NCBI RefSeq assembly: GCF_009914755.1
Contig: NC_060943.1
DNA length: 64,000 bases
DNA from: the human T2T-CHM13v2.0 reference genome, Homo sapiens
Direction: 5' to 3' (one strand)
A program made the position numbers and the translations under genes. Below the pieces are notes generated by a model that was not told the origin of the DNA, made no database searches, and saw only the letters and a program-made list of their open reading frames with translations. Within the stretch, counting starts at the first letter, position 1; each line of letters opens with the position of its first letter. Below are positions 1 through 56,990 of the stretch, one piece after another.

Positions 1-1299
1 TAAAAATACGATATAAAAAATAAGGCCGGACACAGTGGTGCACACCTTTAATCCCAGCACTTTGGGAGTCCAAGACAGGCAGATCATGAGGTCAGGAGTT
101 CGAGACCAGCCTAACCAACATGGTGAAACCCCGTCTCAAATAAAAATACAAAAATTAGCTGGGTGTGGTGGTGCATCCTGAAGTCCCAGCAACTCAGGAG
201 GCTGAGGCAGAAGAATTGCTTGAAACTGGGAGATGGAGGTTGCAGTGAGCCGAGATCATTCCATTGCACTCCACCTTTGGGGACTGAGCGAGACTCCATC
301 TTAAAATAAGTAAATAAATAGATAGAGAGATACATATATACATACATACGGTGACCCATGCCTATCACTCAGGCTCTTTGGGAGGCTAAAGCAGGGATTA
401 GTTGAGCTCAGGAGTTTGAGGCTGCTGTAAACTCTGAATTGTACCATTGTACTCCAGAACTAAGCCACAGAGCGACACCTTCTCTCTCTCTCTCTCTTTT
501 CTTTTGAGACAGAGTCTCACTCTGTCTCCCAGGCTGGAGTGCAGTGGCATAATTTCGGCATACAGTAACCTCCACGTCCTGGGTTTAAGTGATTATCCTG
601 CCTCAGCCTCCTGAGTAGATGAGATTACAGGCATGCACCACCACCCCAAGCTAATTTTTGTACTTTTAGTAGAGGTGGGGTTTCACCATGTTGGCCAGGC
701 TGGTCTCGAACTCTTGACCTCAAGTGGTCTTCCTGCCTTGGCCTCACAAATTGCTGGTATTACAGGTGTGAGCACCTGAACCAACATCCTGTCTCTTAAA
801 AAAAAAAAAAGTTTGGAATCACAGACATCTTGATCTACTAGTGTGGCTTCAAATGCATTACCAAATCAGATACAAAATACCTCCCCTTATTTGTCTCCTT
901 TTCCAGAATTTACTAGATATCTGTGTACACTAACATATGTATTTCATATGTAGTTTCTCTGATCTGGTCCACAAAGAGCTGACATCCAGATGTGGCCCCT
1001 GAACAATCCAGCCTGCCCAGCAGCACTGACATCAATGGGCCCACACCCCATGTTTATCCATGTCTAGGTGTGAGCCCTTCCCAGGACCATGCCCAGTGGA
1101 GCTTCTTCCCAAGTTCACATCACTGGGTCACAGGAGATGGAATCTCGGAGCAGCTGAGAGGAACTAAGGGCAGGCATGGCTGAGTGTGAGTGAACGTGTC
1201 AGGCAAAATTCTTCAAACTCAGAAAAGACTGGCTGCTACAATACCTGGCATTTCAGAAAGGAAAGAGACAGATTAATCCACAGAGGAATATCACTTCAC

Positions 1300-1362
1300 C
1301 TGAGGAAGAGCCATGCCTGGCTCCTTTCCTTTCCTCTTCTGAGCTGCTTCTTCACATAACAT
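1300..1362 (-). CDS. ZNF600: First coding exon of a KRAB-ZNF gene (exon 1300-1381), encodes MLCEEAAQKRKGKEPGMALPQ; KRAB and finger exons lie left of the window
   Basis: Minus strand: acceptor tacag|GATTGATT at 1381, ATG at 1362, 63-nt in-frame CDS, donor CAG|gtgaag at 1300. Gene name from the recalled N-terminus and the gene order ZNF600-ZNF28-ZNF468. Confidence 0.8.
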
Positions 1363-2061
1363 GAGTCTTTAGGAATCAATCCTGTATGTGAAAAAAAATG
1401 AGACTTCTTGTTAGAAATGACTCACTCCCATCCTGTGACAAAACCACATGAACAGGGGAGACCTCACCCAGCAGAAAGAAGTCCCCCACCGCCCACTGCA
1501 CCAGAGATCATGCAGAGATAAGAAAGTCCCACAGGACGACCTATAAGTGTGTTTGACCCCGGTCTTCAGATCTCACTCCCCTCCTGGAGAAGCCCCCACA
1601 CACTAGGCAGCAGTGGGGAGCTGGGCTGGACTGATCTCCCCTTCAGGGCACAAACCCATCCTTCATCAATCCCCATCCAGAGGACAGCCCCTCACCTCTC
1701 TGTGGATCACAGGCTGAGCTCAGCCCTCAGAAATGCAGGACAAAGATGCTCAATGCTGCACACAGATGACAAGCACCTGCGCCACTGCAGGTATTACTGA
1801 GGGTGGGTTCCATCCCATCAGAATAAGAATCCCTGCTAAAGCAGCACAAAAGCTCTATTTGAAAAATGCCTCTAGACTCTAATGTGAAGCCAGGGTTGAG
1901 CTCCACTCAGAGGGGGCGAGCCCAGCACAGCCCCACGTTCTGGCTCTGCCCTCCCCTTGGGGCCTTGTTCTCACCAGCATCCAGAGAGTGGATGACAAAG
2001 GCACAAAAATAATCACACAGAACAGGCAACGTGGACCAGAGGTGGGGTGAATGATGGGCTG

Positions 2062-2750
<689 letters not shown>

Positions 2751-2994
2751 GCTGCAGTGTCAAATGAGGGCTGTGGGAGATCACAAAGGAAACCCGGAGA
2801 AGATGATATCAGAACAAGGACCTAGGAAAGAAAGGCTGCTTGTCACTTGCAGCTGAGGGGAAGAGAGTCCTAGAGAGAGGGACAGCTCAAGTGAGGGCCC
2901 TGAGACAGGAGCAACCTCAGCCCCAGGAAGAGGAAAGCGACCAGTGGGGCTGGAACAGTGGAAGAGAGGAGGGCACAGGTAGGAGATGAGGTCA

Positions 2995-3246
<252 letters not shown>

Positions 3247-8021: not shown

Positions 8022-9202
8022 CTTATTTAACCTCTTGTTGTTCTTTCTCCCCAATCTTTCAATCGTCCTCAATGTCTATATATTACAGCCTCCTCTCTTA
8101 TCTCTCCGTCTCCTCTGCTCTCCCTATTAAATTCTCTCTTCCCTGTTATACCCCTCTGTCCCCACTCTCCAGCACCTCAGATCCCCAGGTGTCCTCCCTG
8201 CTGTGGTTCTCCATCTGTTCTTGCCACCAGCACCACTCTGCTCTGTCTGCCCTGGCTCCAAATCCCTCCTCCTCTCCCTCACTCTGGTGAGCCTCCCTCT
8301 TTGCTGCCCCTCTCCCTACCTTGCTGTCCTTCATCTTTCTGTACATCTAGCTTTTCTCTACATTTCTCCAGTTGCTTTTCTCCTCCTGCTTTCCTAGTTT
8401 TTTTTCTTTCACTTTTGCTGTCTCTTGGCAAATTCCTAACCCATCCTCTACTTTGCCATCTGTTATGGGCCTTTCTCATTCTTCTTTTCTCTGTCTCTGG
8501 TTTTCTACTGCTCTCTCAGTCCCTCTCTCTATCTCCTGATCCCTTTGGCCCAGGCGGGTTTGGAGTAATCACAGGCGGGTTTGGAGTAAGACGCCTGCAT
8601 CCCGTAGAAGCGCATTTTCCAGGGGGTGGAGCTGGACAGGAAAGAACACCTGGTATCATAGGACAAGCCCCTGCGACCCCCCCAACCCTGGCTCAGGGGA
8701 AGCGAAGACTTGGGGAGCAGCAGGGCCCGGCACCAGGAGGGACGTGGTGGGCGACGGCACCCTAAGACAAAGGTGGGACCTGCAGGATCCCAGGACCAGG
8801 CAGAGGACGCAGCCTCCCCGGGGCTGGGGCCGGGGCGCCGCGCTCCAGGTGCCAACTGGGGCGAGGCTGGGAGGCGCCCAGGGCTGGAATCCACCTCGCG
8901 GGTGAGGACTTTAAAAAGCACGGGGCGGGAATAGTCAGAAAAATGTTTTGAGCAGGAAAAATACGCGATAGGAAGTGTATACATTGCCCTATAGCAGAAA
9001 GACCGGGGACGGGACCAGCCTCCGAGCGACTTCAAACCCAAAAGCAAGCAACTTCCAGACTCTTACCGGGACGTCTCAATTTGCTCTGGGTGAAGGGAAG
9101 ACAGGCGAGAATTTCCAGGTCCGTGGGGATCCCACGTCCCAGGGGCAGAAGCGCCGGGGACCTGGGAAGTGCAGACTTAATCCAAGGCAGAGCGAAACTC
9201 AC

Positions 9203-9430
9203 GCGCCGTGGTAGGACCTTCACTCCACGCGATCCGCTTCCGGGTTTGTGCGCGCAGGACTGAAGCCAGGCCGGGGCAGGTTGGCTGGACCTGGGCGGGG
9301 TAGAGGCGGGGCCCCAGGCGGAGAGACCTTGCCCTTTAGAACCGGCAGAGGGAGGGCCCGGGGCGGGACCTGTGCTTCTCAGCCTCGCACTCAGCGCCTC
9401 TGTTTTTCGAGTTTTTGGAGGCGACAGCGG
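9203..9430 (-). promoter_or_regulatory. ZNF600: CpG-island promoter and non-coding exon 1 (donor at 9203; TSS approximate)
   Basis: CpG-rich from ~8700 to 9430; donor GC|gtgagt; ETS-type CCGGAAGCGG at 9234-9243 (minus); GC boxes at ~9293 and ~9361; paralogous to the ZNF28 promoter at ~44 kb. Confidence 0.8.
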
Positions 9431-9688
9431 CCAGGAAGGCTGAGGCATGATTCAAAAGCCCTGGAATTATCTGGAACGGGAATGCAAACTAGAATGTGAA
9501 ATGCAAAGCCCTGCCAGGGCGGAACATACGATTTCATGCTGATGGCCCACAGAACAGAACAGAAATCCTCTCCCTTTCTATTCTCCATTCACTCAGGAGG
9601 GAGGGTCCACCCCGTGCTCAGCTTCAAAGTGTTCCCTAGGGCCTCCGCCTGGGATGCGGGACGGAGAGCTCAGGCCAGGGAGGAGTGA

Positions 9689-10093
<405 letters not shown>

Positions 10094-10109
10094 TGAGGCG
10101 GGCAGATCA

Positions 10110-10442
<333 letters not shown>

Positions 10443-10802
10443 TCATACATAGATTCTCTGATCTGATCCACAAAGAGCTAAATGTGCATCCAGATGTGGC
10501 CCCTGAACAATCCCTGCTGCCCAATATCACTGACACCTTGGGGTCCACACCCCATCTCCATCCATCTCTGGTGTGAGCCCTTCCCAGGACCATGCCCAGT
10601 GCAGCCTCTTCCCAAGCTCATGTCACTAGGTTATAGAAGATGGAATTTAAGTGAAGATGACAAGGACTGAGAAAAGGCATGGGTTAGTGTGAGCAAACGT
10701 GTGAGGCAGGATGCTTCAGACTCACAGAAGACTGGCTACTACAATACCTGGCATTTCAGAAAGGAAAGAGACAGAAGAATCCACCGAGGAATATTACTCC
10801 AC

Positions 10803-10885
10803 CTGAGGAAGAGCCATCCCTGGCTCCTTTTCTTTGCTCCTCTTGGTGTCTTCCTCACGTAACATGAGTCTTTGGAAAATCAATC
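10803..10885 (-). other. Orphan start-codon exon B (MLREEDTKRSKEKEPGMALPQ), intergenic, upstream of the ZNF600 promoter
   Basis: Acceptor tacag at 10885, ATG at 10865, 63-nt open CDS, donor CAG|gtggag at 10803; flanks are homologous to those of ZNF600/ZNF28 exon 2. Confidence 0.8.
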
Positions 10886-11910
10886 CTGTATGTAAAAAAA
10901 AATACGAGATTTAATTTTTAGAAATCACTCCCTCCTTTCCTGTGACAAAACACACACACAGGGGAGACCTCACCAGGGAGAAAGATGGTTCTCTGCTGCC
11001 CACTGCACCAGAGATTATGTGGAGATAAGAAGGTGCCACAGGAAGACCTACAAGGGCAATTTTGACCTGTTTTGAGGTCTTGCTCCCTCCTGCAAAAGTC
11101 CACACACACGCTGCAGCAGGACACAGATCTTCAGGGCACAGATCTGGCCCTAACCAAACCCCATGCAGAGCACAGCCCCCTCACCTCCCTGTGGATCACA
11201 GGCTGATCTCAGCTCTCAACATGGAGGAAACTGCCTTGATGTTCAATGCTGGAGACAGATGAGAATCACCTGCACCATTGTAGGTATTATTGAGGGTGGG
11301 TCCCATACTGTGATAATAGCAATCTCTGATAAAACAGCATAGAAGCTATATTTGCAAAATGCCTGAAAACCCTAATGTGAAGCCAAGTTTGAGCTCCACT
11401 CAGGGCACCAGCCCCGCAGAGCCCCACCTTCTGGCTCTGCTCTCCGCTTGGGGACTTGTTCCCACCAGGATCCAGTGAACAGCGAAGGAGCAAAAAGGAT
11501 CACACAGAACAGGCAACATGGGCCAGAGATGGGGGTGAAGGTGGGGCTGTCATGTCAAATGGGGGACTGCGGGAGAACACAAAAGTTTTCATAGAAAAAG
11601 TGATGTCAGAACAAAGACTTAGGGAAGAAAGGCTGCTTGTCACTTGCAGCTGAGTGGCCAGAGAGTCCTAGGCAGAGGGACAGCCCAGGTGAAGGCCCTG
11701 AGAAAGGAGCAACCTGAGTCCCAGAAAAAGAAAAGAAGCCTGCATGGTTACAGTAGAGGTAGGGAGGAGGACAGAGGCAGGAGTTGATGTCACAGAGCTC
11801 CTGGGACTCAGATATCTAGGGATGAGGTCTTGAAACATTTTTCTCTCACATCTCAACTCAAAAGAATTTTGGAAATGTATTTTCTCACTCATTTTATGTA
11901 TACATGTAAC

Positions 11911-12012
11911 TTTCTCTTCTATACGTTGTCTCTGTGTCTCTTTCTTTTCAAAGTGTCTCGTTCCACCTGACGAGAAATGCCCACAGGTGTGGAGGGGCAA
12001 CCCACCTCTTCA
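11911..12012 (+). mobile_element. 3'-terminal ~100 nt of a HERV-K(HML-2) LTR (LTR5B-like)
   Basis: TTGTCTCTGTGTC...CCACCTGACGAGAAA...CACAGGTGTGGAGGGGCAACCCACCTCTTCA matches the recalled LTR5 U5 end. Confidence 0.75.
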
Positions 12013-12236
12013 CCAATGCAATCCATCCTGGGCAATGGAGCGAGACTCTATCACAAACAAGTACAGAGTCCAGCCAGGGAGGCTGTCTCACACCTGGAAT
12101 GCCAGCAATTTGGGAGGCCAACATGGGAGGATCCCTTGAGGCCAGGAGATCAAGGCTATGGTGAGGTATGATTGCAGCACTGTACTCCAGCCTGGACAAC
12201 AAAATTAAAAAAAATATGAAAAATACGGCCGTACAC

Positions 12237-12689
12237 TTTAATGAGCATTCGTGTGAAGAGACCACCAAACAGCCTTTGTTTGAGCAACATGGCTGTTTAT
12301 TTCACCTGGGTGCAGGCGGGCTGAGTCCAAAAAGAGAGTCAGTGAAGGGAGATAGGGGTGGGGCCGTTTTATAGGATTTGGGTAGGTAAAGGAAAACTAC
12401 AGTCAAAGGGGGTTTGTTCCCTGGTGGGTAGGAGTGGGGGTCACAAGGTGCTCAGTGGGGGAGCTTTTTGAGCCAGGATGAGCCAGGAGAAGGAATTTCA
12501 CAAGGTAATGTCATCACTTAAGGCAAGGACCGGCCCTTTACACTTCTTTTGTGGTGGAATGTCATCAGTTAAGGTGGGGCAGGGCATATTCACTTCTTTT
12601 GTGATTCTTCAGTTACTTCAGGCCATCTGGGCGTATACGTGCAAGTCACAGGGGATGCGATGGCCTGGCCTGGGCTCAGAGGCCTGACA
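12237..12689 (-). mobile_element. HERV-H solo LTR7 (453 bp)
   Basis: Minus strand begins TGTCAGGCCTCTGAGCCC; TATA-like CCTATAAAA ~12366-12375; AATAAA at 12296-12301; 5-bp TSD tacac/tacat; inserted into an Alu head. Confidence 0.92.
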
Positions 12690-12746
12690 TACATGTGCCC
12701 CACGCCTTTAATTCCAGCACTTTAGGAGGCCAAGAAGGGCAGATCA

Positions 12747-13022
<276 letters not shown>

Positions 13023-13280
13023 TCAAGCTCTTTGGGAGTCTAAAGTCGGAATTACTTGAACCTAGGAGTTTCAGGCTGCTGTAAACTCTAAATTGTGCCT
13101 TTGTACTCTAAAACTAAGCCACAGAGCAACATTATCTCTCTCTCTCTCCTTTTTTTTTTTTTTTTTTTTTTGAGATGGAGTCTTGCTCTGTTGCCCAGCC
13201 TGGAGTGCAGTGGCACAATCTCGGCTTACTGTAACCTCGACTTCCCGGATTCAAGTGACTCTCCTGCCTCAGCCTCCTGA

Positions 13281-13463
<183 letters not shown>

Positions 13464-13963
13464 TAAAAAAAAAAGTTTGAAGTCAGAGACATGTTGATCT
13501 ACTAGTGTGACTTCAAATGCACTACCAAATCAGATACAAACTATCTCCCCTTATAGGTCTCCTTTTCCAGAATTTACCAGATATCTGTGCATATTAAAGT
13601 ATATGTTTCATATGTGGTTTCTCTGATCTCATCCACAAAGAGCTGACATCCAGACATGGCCCCTGAACAATGCAGGCTGTGCAGCAGCACTGACACCACG
13701 GGGCCCACACCCCATGTCCATTGATGTCTGGGTGTGAGCCCTTCCCAGGACCATGCCCAGTGGAGCCTCTTCCCAAGTTCATGTCACTGGCTCACAGGAG
13801 ATGGAATCTCAGAGCAGCTGAGAGGAACTGAGGGCAGGCATGGGTGAGTGCAAGTGAATGTGTCAGACAAGATGCTTCAGACTCAGAAAAGACTGGCTGC
13901 TACAATACCTGGCATTTCAGAAATGAAAGAGACAGATTAATCCAAAGAGGAATATCACTTCAC

Positions 13964-14045
13964 CTGAGGAAGAGCCATGCCTGGCTCCTTTCCTTTCCTC
14001 TTCTGAGTGGCTTCCTCATGCAACATGAGTCCTTAGAAATCAATC
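13964..14045 (-). other. Orphan start-codon exon C (MLHEEATQKRKGKEPGMALPQ), intergenic
   Basis: Acceptor ttcag at 14045, ATG at 14026, 63-nt open CDS, donor CAG|gtgaag at 13964. Confidence 0.82.
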
Positions 14046-14734
14046 CTGAATGTGAAAAAAAAAAAGACTTCATGTCAGAAATGACTCACTCCCTTCCTGT
14101 GACAAAAACACACAAACAAGGGAGACGTCACCCTCTGGAAAGATGGTCCTTTGCTGCCCACTGCACCAGAGATCATGCAGAGATAAGAAAGTCCCACAGG
14201 AAGACCTACAAGTGTATGTTTGACCCTGGTCTTCAGATCTCGCCCCCCTCCTGGAGGAGCCTCCCCCACGAGGCAGCAGTGGGGAGCTGGGCTGGACTGA
14301 TCTCCCCTTCAGGGCACAGACCCATCCCTGATCAAACCCCATCCAGAGGACAGCCCCTCACCTCTCTGTGGATCACAGGCTGAGCTCAGCCCTCAGAAAT
14401 GGAGGACTCAGAGCTTCGATGCTCAATGCTGCACACAGATGACAAGCACCTGCGCCACTGCAGGTATTACTGAGGGTGGGTTCCATCCCGTCAGAATAAG
14501 AATCCCTGCTAAAGCGGCACAAAAGCTCTATTTGAAAAATGCCTCTAGACTCTAATGTGAAGCCAGGGTTGAGCTCCACTCAGAGGGCGTGAGCCCAGCA
14601 CAGCCCCACGTTCAGGCTCTGCCCTCCCCTTGGGGCCTTCTTCTCACCAGGATCCAGACAGTGGATGGCAAAGGAGCAAAAATAATCACACAGAACAGGC
14701 AATGTGGACCAGAGGTAGGGTGAGCGTTGGGCTG

Positions 14735-15838
<1,104 letters not shown>

Positions 15839-16068
15839 GCTGCAATGTCAAATGGGACAGAAAGGCTGCTTATCACTTGCAGCTGAGGGGCTAGAGAGTC
15901 CCAGGCAGAGGGACAGCTCAAGTGAAGGCCCTGGGACAGGAGCAACATCACCCTCCCAACAAAGGAAAGCAGCCCGTGTGGCTGGAGCAGTGGAAGAGAG
16001 AAGGGCACAGGTAGGAGATGAGGTCAGAGAGGTCCTGGGGACAGAGATCCATAGGGTTAAGGACTTCA

Positions 16069-16290
<222 letters not shown>

Positions 16291-39749: not shown

Positions 39750-40276
39750 CTATGTATGAACATTCCATTCTAATTAGTAAGATTTTTGGAGTCAGAAACA
39801 CAGGAACTCACTCAATTACCTAAAAATGTGGTATAAAATCAGGGAGAAAAGATTTTCCCTTATTGGTCTCCTTTTCTAGAACTTACCACGTACTTCGTGC
39901 ATATTAATACTTGACTCCCATTGGCAGCTGCTCTAATCCTGGTCCACAGAGAGCTGACAGTGCATCCAGATGTGGCCCCTGAACAAACCCTGCTGCCCAA
40001 CAGCACTGACACCACAGGACCCTCACCCCGTCTCCATCCATGTCTGGGTGTGAGCCCTTCCCAGGACCATGCCCAGTGCAGCCTCTCCCATGTTCATGTC
40101 ACTGGGTCACCAGAGATGGAATCTAAGCGAGATGAGATGAACTGAAGGAAGGCATGGGTGAGGGTGAGCAAACATATCAGGCAGGACACTTCAGACTCAG
40201 AGAAGACTCCCAACTCCAAGGCCCAGCGTTTCTGAAAGGAAGGAGACAGAACAATCCACCGAGAATACCATCTCAC

Positions 40277-40291
40277 CTGAGGAAGAGCCAT
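40277..40291 (-). CDS. ZNF28: ZNF28 exon 2 coding part (MALPQ); exon spans 40277-40364
   Basis: Acceptor attcag at 40364, ATG at 40291, donor CAG|gtgaga; the upstream ATG of paralogs is replaced by TTG. Confidence 0.92.
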
Positions 40292-40450
40292 CCCTGACTC
40301 CTTTGCTTTCCTCTTCCTCTTCTGGGTTTCTTCCTCACGTACCAAGATTCTTTAGAAGTCAATCCTGAATGTTAAAAATATGTTGTTTATTGCTCAGAAT
40401 CAACACATCCCCTCCCTGTAACACAACAACACATACAAAGGAGACTTCAC

Positions 40451-40503
40451 CTTGAGGAAATATGGTCCCCTATGCTGCCTACCGCACCACGAACAAAAAA
40501 TTC
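40451..40503 (-). other. Candidate 53-nt 5'UTR cassette exon of ZNF28
   Basis: Acceptor ttttcctgtag and donor AAG|gtgaag; contains no ATG; 86-nt intron to exon 2. Confidence 0.45.
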
Positions 40504-55213: not shown

Positions 55214-55841
55214 TGAGCCACGACTTCCAGCTAATTTTTGTATTTTTATTAGAGATGAGGTTTTACCACATGGGCCAGGCTGGTCTCAAACTCCTGACCT
55301 CAAGTGATCCACCTGCCTTGGCTCCCAAAGTGCTGGGATTACAGGCATAAGCCACCACACCCAGACCAACATCCTGTCTACTAGTGTGCCTTCAAATGCA
55401 TTAAGAAATTGGATACAAAATGTCTCCCCTTATTGGTCTCCTTTTCCAGAATTTACCAGATATCTGTGCACATTAATGTATGTATTTCATATGTAGTTTC
55501 TCTGATCTGGTCCACGAAGAGCTGACATCCAGACATGACCCTTGAACAATCCAGGTTGCCCAGCAGCACTGACACCATGGGGCCCACACCCTGTGTCCAT
55601 CCATGTCTAGGTGTGAGGCCTTCCCAGGACCATGCCCAGTGGAACCTCTTCTCAAGTTCATGTCACTGGGTCACAGGAGATGGAATCTCAGAGCAGGTGA
55701 GAGGAACTGAGGGCAGGCATGGGTGAGTGTGAGTGAACCTGTCAGGCAAAATGCTTCAGACTCAGAAATGACTGGCTACTAAATACCTGGTGTTTCAGAA
55801 AGGAAAGAGACAGATTAATCCAAAGAGGAATATCACTTCAC

Positions 55842-55923
55842 CTGAGGAAGAGCCATGCCTGGCTCCTTTCCTTTCCTCTTCTGAGCTGCTTCCTCATGTA
55901 ACATGAGTCTTTAGAAATCAATC
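55842..55923 (-). other. Orphan start-codon exon E (MLHEEAAQKRKGKEPGMALPQ), intergenic between ZNF468 and ZNF28
   Basis: Acceptor gtacag at 55923, ATG at 55904, 63-nt open CDS, donor CAG|gtgaag at 55842. Confidence 0.82.
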
Positions 55924-56613
55924 CTGTACGTGAAAAAAGTATGAAACTTCACGTAGAAATGACTCACTCCCTTCCTGTGACAAAAACACACAGACAGGGG
56001 AGATGTCACCCTGTAGAAAGATGGTCCTCTGAGGCCCACTGCACCAGAGATCATGCAGAGATAAGAAAGTCCCACCGGAAGACCTACAAGTGTATGTTTG
56101 ACCCCAGTCTTCAGATCTCGCCCCCCTCCTGGAGAAGCCACCACACACGAGGCAGCAGTGGGGAGCTGGGCTGGACTGATCTCCTCTTCAGGGCACACAC
56201 TCATCCCTGATCAAACCCCATCCAGAGGACAACCCCTCACTTCTCTGTGGATCACAGGCTGAGCTCAGCCCCCAGAAATGGAGGACTCAGAGCTTCGATG
56301 CTCAATGCTGCACACAGATGACAAGCAACTGCGCCACTGCAGGTATTACTGAGGGTGGGTTCCATCCCATCAGAATAAGAATCCCTGCTAAAGCAGCACA
56401 AAAGCTCTATTTGCAAAATGCCTCTAGACTCTAATGTGAAGCCAGGGTTGAGCTCCACTCAGAGGGGGTGAGCCCAGCACAGCCCCACATTCTGGCTCTG
56501 CCCTCCCCTTGGGGCCTTGTTCTCACCAGGATCCAGACAGTGGATGACAAAGGCACAAAAATAATCACACAGAACAGGCAACGTGGACGAGAGGTGGGGT
56601 GAATGATGGGCTG

Positions 56614-56990
56614 TGTGAAAGGAAATAAATCTGTGAGCCCCCAAATCATTAAGCAAAAGGCAAAAGTCAAGCTGGGAACTGCTTAGGGAACCAGACTCCC
56701 CTTCTATTCAAAGTCACCCCTCTGCTCCCTGATATAGATGCATGTCTGAGTGCCTCCTTCAAAAGGCTAATCAGAAACTCAAAAGAAGGGCCCAGCACAG
56801 TGGCTCATGCCTGTAATCCCAGCACTGTGGGAGGCTGATGCAGTGAGCTGAGATCATACCACTGCACTCCAGCCTGGGCAACAAAATGAGACTTCATCTC
56901 AAAAAAACAAAACAAAACAAAACAAAAACTTAAAAGATTGCAACCATCTGTGCCTCATTTATCTGTGACCTGGAAGTCACCTCCCTGCTT
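56614..56990 (+). mobile_element. MER4A1-like LTR, third copy, 3'-truncated by deletion
   Basis: Same 5' terminus and same internally deleted Alu as the copy at 14735. Confidence 0.78.

What the first reader, a model, noticed from the sequence alone, without database searches (positions are those of the whole stretch)
10803..12689. Sense-oriented LTR7 (HERV-H) positioned to drive orphan exon B and ZNF600
Seen: a complete solo LTR7 on the gene strand, 1.35 kb upstream of exon B and ~3 kb upstream of the ZNF600 promoter. It has a TATA-like box, two ACAAAAGA motifs (12545-12552, 12595-12602) and a donor CAG|gtgaaa at 12306 overlapping its own AATAAA, so splicing there would bypass LTR polyadenylation. 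Further donors lie at 11185 and 10974. Established: LTR7 is a pluripotency-associated promoter/enhancer. As I recall, the second ACAAAAGA (SOX-type) motif marks the ESC-active LTR7up subgroup. Inference: an ESC- or embryo-specific ZNF600 isoform, potentially an ERV-to-repressor feedback link.
Basis: partly seen in the sequence, partly recalled or inferred. Interest (0 to 1): 0.75.

Follow-up and report, generated by a model that had tools for sequence, protein, structure and literature searches.

The report
Solo HERV-H LTR7up1 upstream of ZNF600
A complete stand-alone retroviral LTR of the stem-cell-active HERV-H subtype sits 3 kb upstream of ZNF600, a gene whose protein binds HERV-H, but published stem-cell data mark it as enhancer-like and not as a promoter of a new ZNF600 isoform.

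Summary
The sequence observation holds. Window 12237-12689 (minus strand, the ZNF600 strand) is a complete 453-bp solo HERV-H LTR. The rest of the reported span (10803-12236) is not LTR. It is a paralogous copy of the ZNF600 5' module that ends in "exon B".

The LTR is the locus that Carter et al. 2022 list as chr19:52789774-52790222, subfamily 7up1, solo, minus strand.

In H1 ESC the published calls for this locus are:
- Positive: NANOG, KLF4 and H3K27ac.
- Negative: H3K4me3, top-septile GRO-seq, RNA, chimeric transcript and SOX2.

RefSeq annotates the LTR as an enhancer. None of the 15 ZNF600 transcripts starts there or uses exon B. The donor over AATAAA is in 30 of the 31 nearest copies, so it is a family feature, not a local adaptation.

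ZNF600 is a published HERV-H binder, but its site lies in the internal region of old HERV-H lineages and is deleted in younger ones.

My best reading is a pluripotency-factor-bound, enhancer-type LTR next to the ZNF600 promoter whose effect on ZNF600 is untested. LTR-to-KZFP circuits are already in print for this cluster. Interest is modest.

The parts
12237..12689 (-). Complete solo HERV-H LTR, subfamily LTR7up1 (453 bp)
   Evidence: Aligns over 1-453 at 94-96% to the other scored genomic copies; 40 of 2999 candidates were scored. It is the only copy in the window. Flanks carry neither the PBS nor the PPT seen beside proviral copies, and the PBS motif has 0 matches in the window at up to 3 mismatches. 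Carter 2022 lists the locus as 7up1, solo, minus strand.
12690..12694 (-). 5' copy of the target-site duplication (ATGTA)
   Evidence: Flanks printed. It matches GTGTA at 12232-12236 in 4 of 5 positions. Another solo copy (L009) shows a perfect 5-bp duplication at the same boundaries.
12232..12236 (-). 3' copy of the target-site duplication (GTGTA)
12593..12600 (-). First AAAAGAAG (block 2a), inside CACAAAAGAAGTG
12543..12550 (-). Second AAAAGAAG, in the duplicated block 2b. This is the 8-bp predicted SOX2/3 site that Carter 2022 found necessary for 7up1 promoter activity.
   Evidence: for position and the 50-nt repeat unit. for the published deletion assay. 27 of the 31 nearest copies carry two AAAAGAAG.
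12367..12373 (-). TATAAAA
   Evidence: Present in 29 of 31 nearest copies.
12356..12364 (-). GCCCCACCC, a KLF-type GC box just downstream of the TATA box (motif assignment is from recall)
   Evidence: present in 25 of 30 other copies. A KLF4 ChIP peak overlaps this LTR in H1.
12296..12308 (-). CAG|GTGAAA donor-like site overlapping the LTR polyadenylation signal AATAAA
   Evidence: CAGGTGAAATAAA is in 30 of 31 nearest copies, so it is a family feature.
10357..11874 (-). Paralogous 'module B' of the ZNF600 5' region (not LTR)
   Evidence: 10357-11550 is 78% identical to 874-2062, 13538-14735 and 55417-56614. 11553-11874 matches 2758-3071 and 15854-16104.
11180..11187 (-). GAG|GTGAGG donor (last exon base 11185), exact paralog of the annotated donor of ZNF600 alternative exon 1696-2266
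   Evidence: alignment and splice-site table.
10803..10885 (-). Exon B: unannotated paralog of the ZNF600 ATG exon 1300-1381. It keeps the AG acceptor and an open 21-codon ORF (MLREEDTKRSKEKEPGMALPQ), with donor CAG|GTGGAG.
   Evidence: The paralogs in use have CAG|GTGAAG or GTGAGA, so the exon B donor has lost the +4 A.
9067..9261 (-). Annotated ZNF600 first exon in a CpG-rich promoter, 2976 bp downstream of the LTR
   Evidence: RefSeq table supplied with the finding; sequence.

Best explanation
Window 12237-12689 is a solo LTR left by a HERV-H provirus of the young LTR7up1 subfamily. It inserted in sense orientation 3 kb upstream of the ZNF600 CpG-island promoter and then lost its interior by LTR-LTR recombination. 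It keeps the family's promoter core: the two AAAAGAAG/SOX-type sites, a KLF-type box, TATA and the polyadenylation signal.

In primed human ESC it is bound by NANOG and KLF4 and carries H3K27ac, but it lacks promoter marks and shows no LTR-initiated RNA. It therefore behaves as an enhancer-type element, not as a transcription start site. If it has an effect, the most likely one is to couple ZNF600 to the KLF4/NANOG pluripotency programme.

Shown: identity, completeness, solo state, subfamily, motif integrity, and the published chromatin calls for this locus.

Inferred: that the element changes ZNF600 output.
For: Identity:
- Full-length matches to other genomic copies.
- 15 of the copies are preceded by the PPT and 12 are followed by the His-tRNA PBS, while this one has neither.
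- Target-site duplication matches in 4 of 5 positions.

Subfamily and locus identity:
- Carter 2022 Supplementary file 1 row reads chr19 52789774-52790222, 7up1, SOLO 1, strand minus, NANOG 1, KLF4 1, H3K27ac 1, with H3K4me3, GRO-seq, RNA, chimeric, SOX2, KAP1 and H3K9me3 all 0.
- Their alignment holds the locus sequence. By eye it shares all the private features of the window copy and differs at 3 single bases.
- The 8-bp AAAAGAAG in block 2b is intact.

Base rate, from my hand count of the 48 solo 7up1 rows in parts 1-2 of that table: H3K27ac 38, H3K4me3 14, chimeric 1, GRO-seq 0, RNA 0.

Enhancer annotation:
- RefSeq annotates 12237-12767 as an enhancer (hub table).
- That feature is one of three equal tiles. 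The middle tile coincides with an H9 hESC H3K4me1 peak in Barakat 2018.

Precedent:
- KLF4 sites on TEs inside young KZFP clusters, with KLF4 inducing those genes.
- LTR5B controlling ZNF600 and its neighbours.
- MER57E3 controlling ZNF genes in hESC.
Against: - No perturbation of this LTR exists in anything I could read, so an effect on ZNF600 is unproven.
- No SOX2, OCT4, MED1 or H3K4me1 call at this locus in H1.
- GRO-seq over the 8 kb downstream, which includes the ZNF600 promoter, is not in the top septile of LTR7 loci, so ZNF600 is not strongly transcribed there.
- The copy is somewhat more decayed than its relatives. Median identity is 94.7% to 30 copies against 96.3% among them, with 11 private differences, and it has 7 CpG against a median of 9.
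- The published regulator of ZNF600 in this cluster is LTR5B in endoderm, not LTR7.
- I could not read the ChIP-STARR-seq activity value for the LTR tile.
Confidence: 0.55

Rival explanations
1. Neutral bystander. The LTR binds NANOG and KLF4 and is acetylated because any intact 7up1 LTR is, but it has no measurable effect on ZNF600 or any other gene.
For: H3K27ac is the rule for solo 7up1 LTRs wherever they sit (38 of 48 by my hand count), and NANOG overlaps 97.7% of 7up loci. The marks therefore carry little locus-specific information. ZNF600 has its own CpG-rich promoter. The copy is slightly more decayed than its relatives.
Against: It lies only 3 kb from the promoter, in a cluster where TE-borne KLF4 sites and LTR enhancers have been shown to act on KZFP genes. 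RefSeq lists it as an enhancer (hub table).
Confidence: 0.28
2. The LTR is an alternative, ESC- or embryo-specific promoter whose transcripts splice from 12306, 11185 or 10974 into exon B and on into ZNF600.
For: - Sense orientation and an intact TATA box, with both SOX-type sites.
- Subfamily 7up1 is the one with promoter activity in ESC.
- Donor 11185 is the paralog of an annotated donor, and exon B keeps its acceptor, ORF and a GT donor.
- There is no other minus-strand AATAAA between the LTR and 3321.
- The paralogous exon at 55842-55941 is used as a first exon (hub table).
Against: - H3K4me3, GRO-seq, RNA and chimeric calls are all 0 for this locus in H1.
- Only 1 of 48 solo 7up1 LTRs has a chimeric call and none has a GRO-seq or RNA call (hand count).
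- A solo LTR lacks the proviral leader that lies downstream of the PBS.
- No RefSeq exon lies in the LTR or at exon B among 15 transcripts (hub table).
- The exon B donor is weaker than those of its used paralogs.
- The LTR donor is a family-wide sequence (30 of 31 copies).
- Four literature searches found no main-text report.
Confidence: 0.08
3. Intronic polyadenylation trap. The LTR lies in sense orientation inside the intron of the long ZNF600 isoform that starts at 55941. Its AATAAA and GT-rich downstream sequence could then terminate part of those transcripts prematurely.
For: The LTR lies within the annotated gene span, downstream of first exon 55842-55941 and on the same strand (hub table). 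The AATAAA is intact and is followed by a TG-rich stretch. Carter's label for the locus includes the ENCODE 'Txn' chromatin state.
Against: RefSeq lists no transcript end at the LTR. At least one annotated transcript from 55941 reads through it. Nothing I could read tests the idea.
Confidence: 0.05

Closest known systems
LTR7up1 solo LTRs of HERV-H (Carter et al. 2022, eLife, PMC8912925; sections 5-7 and 9-11 and Supplementary files 1, 2, 5 and 6 seen)
   Same: It is one of them. It has the same length, the same block 2a/2b duplication with the 8-bp AAAAGAAG, and the usual NANOG, KLF4 and H3K27ac calls. It is listed by coordinates in their tables.
   Different: Nothing structural differs. What is particular is its position, 3 kb upstream of and in sense to a KZFP gene whose product binds HERV-H.
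LTR5B enhancers controlling the ZNF611/ZNF600/ZNF28/ZNF468/ZNF320 cluster in endoderm (Pontis et al. 2022, Nat Commun, PMC9684439; section 10 read)
   Same: An ERV LTR inside the same gene cluster, proposed to switch on KZFP genes that in turn repress TEs.
   Different: That case is a different LTR family (HERV-K), a different activator (GATA6) and a different cell state, and it was shown by CRISPRi. The LTR7up1 here has not been perturbed.
KLF4-bound TE enhancers ('TEENhancers') in young KZFP clusters (Pontis et al. 2019, Cell Stem Cell, PMC6509360; section 11 and passages read)
   Same: A KLF4-bound young TE inside a primate-specific KZFP cluster. That paper names ZNF600 among the HERVH-recognising KZFPs.
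   Different: That paper makes the statement at cluster level. In the text I read, this LTR is not singled out.
MER57E3 LTRs as proximal regulatory elements of ZNF genes in hESC (NAR 2022, PMC9122532; passages read)
   Same: An LTR close to the TSS of a ZNF gene that is active in hESC, with an LTR-ZNF feedback discussed.
   Different: MER57E3 is ancient, sits mostly in the first intron or promoter, is driven by TEF, and was validated by CRISPRi and knockout.
HERV-H-driven chimeric transcripts from full-length proviruses (Wang et al. 2014, seen only as used in Carter's table and methods)
   Same: The same promoter family and the same cell type.
   Different: Those are overwhelmingly proviral loci. 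This is a solo LTR with a chimeric call of 0.

Membership tests
HERV-H LTR (LTR7 group) | Full-length similarity to LTRs that flank HERV-H proviruses (His-tRNA PBS downstream of the 5' copy, polypurine tract upstream of the 3' copy) | tested here: met
   Aligns 1-453 at 94-96% to the other scored copies. Among 32 hits in 30 loci, 12 are followed by the PBS and 15 are preceded by the PPT.
HERV-H LTR (LTR7 group) | Solo state: no internal sequence, and a 5-bp target-site duplication at the LTR ends | tested here: met
   No PBS or PPT at the flanks. The PBS motif has 0 matches in the window. ATGTA and GTGTA match in 4 of 5 positions.
LTR7up (7up1/7up2) of Carter 2022 | Block 2b is a tandem duplicate of block 2a and carries the 8-bp AAAAGAAG insertion (also present in 7u1) | tested here: met
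   Two CACAAAAGAAGTG units lie 50 nt apart, and AAAAGAAG is at 12593-12600 and 12543-12550.
LTR7up (7up1/7up2) of Carter 2022 | Placement in the 7up1 clade of the LTR7 tree | not tested
   I built no tree with labelled references. It is taken from Carter's Supplementary files 1 and 2, which label this locus 7up1 / LTR7up1. By eye, many of the nearest genomic copies correspond in chromosome, strand and length to rows labelled 7up1, for example chr10:6629579 and chr10:6797083.
ESC-active HERV-H promoter | H3K4me3, nascent or mature RNA, or a chimeric transcript at the LTR in ESC | tested here: not met
   This is a look-up of published binary calls, not an experiment of mine: H3K4me3 0, GRO-seq 0, RNA 0, chimeric 0. 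There is no RefSeq exon in the LTR (hub table).
TE-embedded enhancer of a KZFP gene | Activator binding and H3K27ac at the TE in the relevant cell type | tested here: met
   Look-up: NANOG 1, KLF4 1, H3K27ac 1 in H1. RefSeq enhancer feature 12237-12767 (hub table).
TE-embedded enhancer of a KZFP gene | The neighbouring gene changes when the TE is silenced or deleted | not testable with these tools
   No perturbation data for this LTR appeared in any text I could read.

The most novel reading that the evidence does not exclude
A young HERV-H lineage has wired the repressor of its older relatives into its own activation programme. The LTR7up1 upstream of ZNF600 makes ZNF600 respond to KLF4 and NANOG in the same cells where 7up HERV-H is active. 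Meanwhile the 7up-type proviruses have lost the internal ZNF600 binding site and escape. That would be a feed-forward circuit, built from a virus's own LTR, that silences old HERV-H copies and spares the young ones.
Probability: 0.08. Interest if true: 0.65.

Novelty: new member of a known kind. Interest (0 to 1): 0.33.

Why it matters
If the LTR does tune ZNF600, it would be a concrete single-locus example of an ERV-to-KZFP regulatory link. The enhancer and the repressor's target would come from the same retroviral family but from different generations of it. One CRISPRi experiment could test this.

If it does not, the locus shows that an intact, factor-bound LTR7up1 next to a promoter can still be inert.

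Either way the element is already catalogued, and the general circuit (TE enhancers switching on KZFP genes) is published for this very cluster. The gain would be one more instance, not a new principle.

Tried and rejected
- **LTR7B/C/Y.** My first impression from recalled consensus sequences was that the middle of the LTR looked like B/C/Y and not LTR7 proper. Carter's text and tables showed that recollection was wrong, and I dropped it.
- **Locus retrieval.** It failed three times: one search gave the hit table but could not cut out the loci, and searches did not complete. The same request succeeded.
- **Barakat 2018 supplements.** I looked for the STARR-seq activity of the LTR tile. Table S2 (mmc3.xlsx) is too large to read, and the archive is held cut, showing only the H3K4me1 peak file. 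The link between the RefSeq enhancer and that study therefore rests on tile arithmetic. It also rests on my recollection that RefSeq draws such features from that paper, and on a recalled hg19-hg38 offset of about 503,253 bp.
- **Age by orthology.** Not possible, because no other primate genome is held. Only the subfamily-level ages in Carter are available.
- **A paralogous LTR copy near ZNF611 or other cluster genes.** None appears among the 40 scored hits or in the window. A copy duplicated along with the gene should have ranked first, so the insertion post-dates the module duplications. This is an inference.
- **CpG decay and private substitutions as a proxy for inactivity.** The differences are small: 7 CpG against a median of 9, and 11 private sites, none in the two AAAAGAAG motifs, the TATA box or AATAAA. 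They are not decisive.
- **The roughly 100-bp fragment at 11911-12012.** It has 39 other scored genomic copies at 83-92% (mostly 90-92%), from 892 candidates. I recall it as the end of a HERV-K LTR5-type element in antisense but did not test the name.
Full report
**What is in the sequence**

I read 10500-13000 on the minus strand, the ZNF600 strand.
- ACAAAAGA at 12595-12602 and 12545-12552.
- TATAAAA at 12367-12373, and AATAAA at 12296-12301.
- CAG|GTGAAA with last exon base 12306.
- GAG|GTGAGG ending at 11185, and CTG|GTGAGG ending at 10974.
- "Exon B" at 10803-10885.

The distances also hold: 1352 bp from the LTR to exon B, and 2976 bp to the annotated first-exon start at 9261.

The one correction concerns extent. 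The LTR is 12237-12689 (453 bp). The rest of the reported span is not LTR. The bare word ACAAAAGA is not enriched in the window, with 4 matches against 5.2 expected. It has meaning only through its place inside the LTR.

**Identity**

A search of the window's own genome scored 40 of 2999 candidates. The 39 that are not the query match at 94-96% identity, all but four over positions 1-453. Two pairs lie about 5.5 kb apart on one strand, as the two LTRs of a provirus do.

I examined 32 hits in 30 fetched loci. Twelve are followed by the His-tRNA primer-binding site and 15 are preceded by the polypurine tract. The window copy has neither. That primer-binding motif has 0 matches in the whole window at up to 3 mismatches, and the LTR occurs once in the window.

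The five bases on either side are ATGTA and GTGTA, a 4-of-5 match. Another solo copy (L009) shows a perfect 5-bp duplication at the same boundaries. So this is a complete solo LTR left by LTR-LTR recombination.

**Subfamily**

Carter et al. 2022 (PMC8912925) split LTR7 into eight subfamilies. Only 7up1 and 7up2 are robustly transcribed in ESC (sections 5 and 7).

In 7up and 7u1, block 2b is a tandem duplicate of block 2a and carries an 8-bp insertion, AAAAGAAG. This is a predicted SOX2/3 site, and deleting it abolished promoter activity in iPSC (sections 9 and 11).

The window LTR has two CACAAAAGAAGTG units 50 nt apart, with AAAAGAAG at 12593-12600 and 12543-12550. Of the 31 nearest copies, 27 also have two.

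**This exact locus is already catalogued**

Carter's Supplementary file 1 has the row chr19 52789774-52790222, 7up1, SOLO 1, strand minus. Supplementary file 2 lists it as LTR7up1, solo.

Their alignment files hold the hg38 sequence of that row. By eye it shares all the unusual features of the window copy and differs at three single bases, so it is the same locus in another haplotype.

The chr19 offset implied (about 3.084 Mb) agrees with that of a neighbouring 7up2 provirus of equal length in both assemblies.

**Published state in H1 ESC**

| Marks |
|---|
| NANOG, KLF4, H3K27ac |
| RNA, top-septile GRO-seq, chimeric transcript, KAP1, OCT4, MED1, FOXA1, FOXP1, SOX2, TCF4, ZNF534, ZNF90, H3K4me1, H3K4me3, H3K9me3 |

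The GRO-seq window was 10 bp upstream to 8 kb downstream of the LTR, so it includes the ZNF600 promoter.

For a base rate I hand-counted the solo 7up1 rows in parts 1 and 2 of the table. There are 48 solo LTRs. Of these, 38 carry H3K27ac, 14 carry H3K4me3, 1 has a chimeric call, and none has a GRO-seq or RNA call.

Solo 7up1 LTRs thus usually look like enhancers and rarely like productive promoters. This one falls in the majority class. One caveat is that the RNA and chimeric lists come from a HERV-H-centred analysis, which may under-sample solo LTRs.

**The RefSeq enhancer**

The hub table lists enhancers at 12237-12767 and 13299-13828. The gap between them (12768-13298) is the same width, so these are three equal tiles of one 1592-bp region.

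Barakat et al. 2018 (PMC6084406) supply a peak file for H9 hESC. The only archive member visible to me is the H3K4me1 peak file. It holds chr19 53293554-53294084 and 53290721-53291579 in hg19.

I mapped these using the LTR as anchor and a recalled hg19-hg38 offset of about 503,253. They fall within 3-4 bp of the missing middle tile and of a third tile next to 8224-9081 and 9082-9937. I infer that the RefSeq features come from that hESC ChIP-STARR-seq study, and that the LTR tile was one of those kept as an enhancer. I could not read the activity table, so this stays an inference.

**What lies downstream**

Window 10357-11550 is a 78%-identical paralog of 874-2062, which holds the ZNF600 ATG exon 1300-1381. 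It is also a paralog of 13538-14735 and of 55417-56614, which holds the annotated alternative first exon 55842-55941. It is partly a paralog of the ZNF28 exon region as well.

Exon B keeps three features:
- The polypyrimidine tract and AG acceptor.
- An open 21-codon frame, MLREEDTKRSKEKEPGMALPQ, against MLCEEAAQKRKGKEPGMALPQ in ZNF600.
- A GT donor, CAG|GTGGAG.

The paralogs in use have GTGAAG or GTGAGA, so the exon B donor has lost the +4 A. The donor at 11185 is the exact paralog of the annotated donor of exon 1696-2266. But RefSeq's 15 ZNF600 transcripts use neither the LTR nor exon B (hub table).

**The promoter model**

In favour:
- Sense orientation and an intact core.
- The right subfamily.
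- Usable splice sites downstream.
- No other minus-strand AATAAA until 3321.

Against:
- The four negative calls above.
- The 1-in-48 base rate for chimeric transcripts.
- The absence of the proviral leader in a solo LTR.
- The absence of any annotated exon.

The donor overlapping AATAAA is not a local device. CAGGTGAAATAAA is in 30 of the 31 nearest copies. By my estimate the AATAAA lies about 40 nt from the likely start. This is not measured. Proviral 5' LTRs of this family read through a signal at the same distance. I put the promoter model at about 8%.

**The feedback idea**

ZNF600 is named among the HERVH-recognising KZFPs by Pontis et al. 2019 (PMC6509360, section 11).

A 2024 preprint (10.1101/2024.05.20.595046, section 7) places its binding at 4200-5000 bp of LTR7-HERVH proviruses of the old subfamilies. 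It reports the site deleted in subfamilies 3-8, the middle-aged and young ones. ZNF600 and ZNF611 are called paralogs younger than 20 My (PMC10547255, passage). 7up1 spread mostly 4-14 Mya.

But the LTR here comes from a generation of HERV-H that probably escapes ZNF600, and a solo LTR has no internal region to bind. Matching the preprint's young subfamilies to Carter's 7up is my inference.

**The principle is in print**

- Pontis 2019 reports that young KZFP clusters are rich in KLF4 sites, many on TEs. KLF4 overexpression acetylates and induces them, followed by H3K9me3 gain on HERVH and other TEs.
- Pontis 2022 (PMC9684439, section 10) shows by CRISPRi that LTR5 elements control ZNF611, ZNF600, ZNF28, ZNF468 and ZNF320 in endoderm.
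- A 2022 NAR paper (PMC9122532, passages) shows that MER57E3 LTRs act as proximal elements of ZNF genes in hESC.

What I did not find is any main-text statement that links an LTR7 to ZNF600 transcription. The searches were ZNF600 with LTR7 (3 papers), with HERVH (8), with HERV-H (1), and with chimeric plus LTR (3). I opened the relevant hits. Supplementary tables of other papers were not searched.

**Is the position a coincidence?**

This is my arithmetic, not a tool result. There are 208 7up1 copies in 3.1 Gb. The chance of one falling within 5 kb upstream of any of the 4 to 11 HERV-H-binding KZFP genes is roughly 0.001 to 0.004. That looks striking, but the estimate is post hoc and ignores regional insertion and retention bias in these clusters.

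**Verdict**

The element is a known, catalogued LTR7up1 solo LTR in an enhancer-like state.

| Reading | Probability |
|---|---|
| Enhancer-type role near ZNF600 | about 0.55 |
| Bystander | about 0.28 |
| Alternative promoter | about 0.08 |
| Polyadenylation trap for the distal isoform | about 0.05 |

One deletion or CRISPRi experiment would decide between the first three.

Noticed in passing
window 874-2062, 10357-11550, 13538-14735, 55417-56614 (and 39847-40489): There are four tandemly dispersed copies of a 1.2-kb module (about 78% identical), plus a partial one at ZNF28. Each carries a copy of the ATG exon with an open 21-codon frame ending in MALPQ and a GT donor. Exon 1300-1381 is the ZNF600 coding exon, 55842-55941 is an annotated alternative first exon, and 10803-10885 and 13964-14045 are unannotated.
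   Followed up: partly
window 11911-12012 (minus strand): A roughly 100-bp repeat fragment lies next to the LTR7. It has 39 other scored genomic copies at 83-92% identity (mostly 90-92%), out of 892 candidates. I recall it as the terminal part of a HERV-K LTR5-type element in antisense. This may be relevant because LTR5B is the published regulator of this KZFP cluster. The name was not tested.
   Followed up: partly
window 12237-12689: By eye, the CHM13 copy differs from the hg38 copy printed in Carter's alignment at three single bases in 448. One lies beside the TATA box, and one is position 12536, which is also a private difference against other copies. Neither AAAAGAAG motif is affected.
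   Followed up: partly
window 8224-10796 and 12237-13828: The RefSeq enhancer features are equal-width tiles of larger regions. The tiles that RefSeq does not list (about 9938-10796 and 12768-13298) coincide with H3K4me1 peaks of H9 hESC in Barakat 2018.
   Followed up: partly
window 1696-2266: This annotated alternative ZNF600 exon has no AG before its start, so it is a first exon. Its start at 2266 falls at the edge of an Alu (2247-2497), which suggests an Alu-borne alternative start.
   Followed up: no
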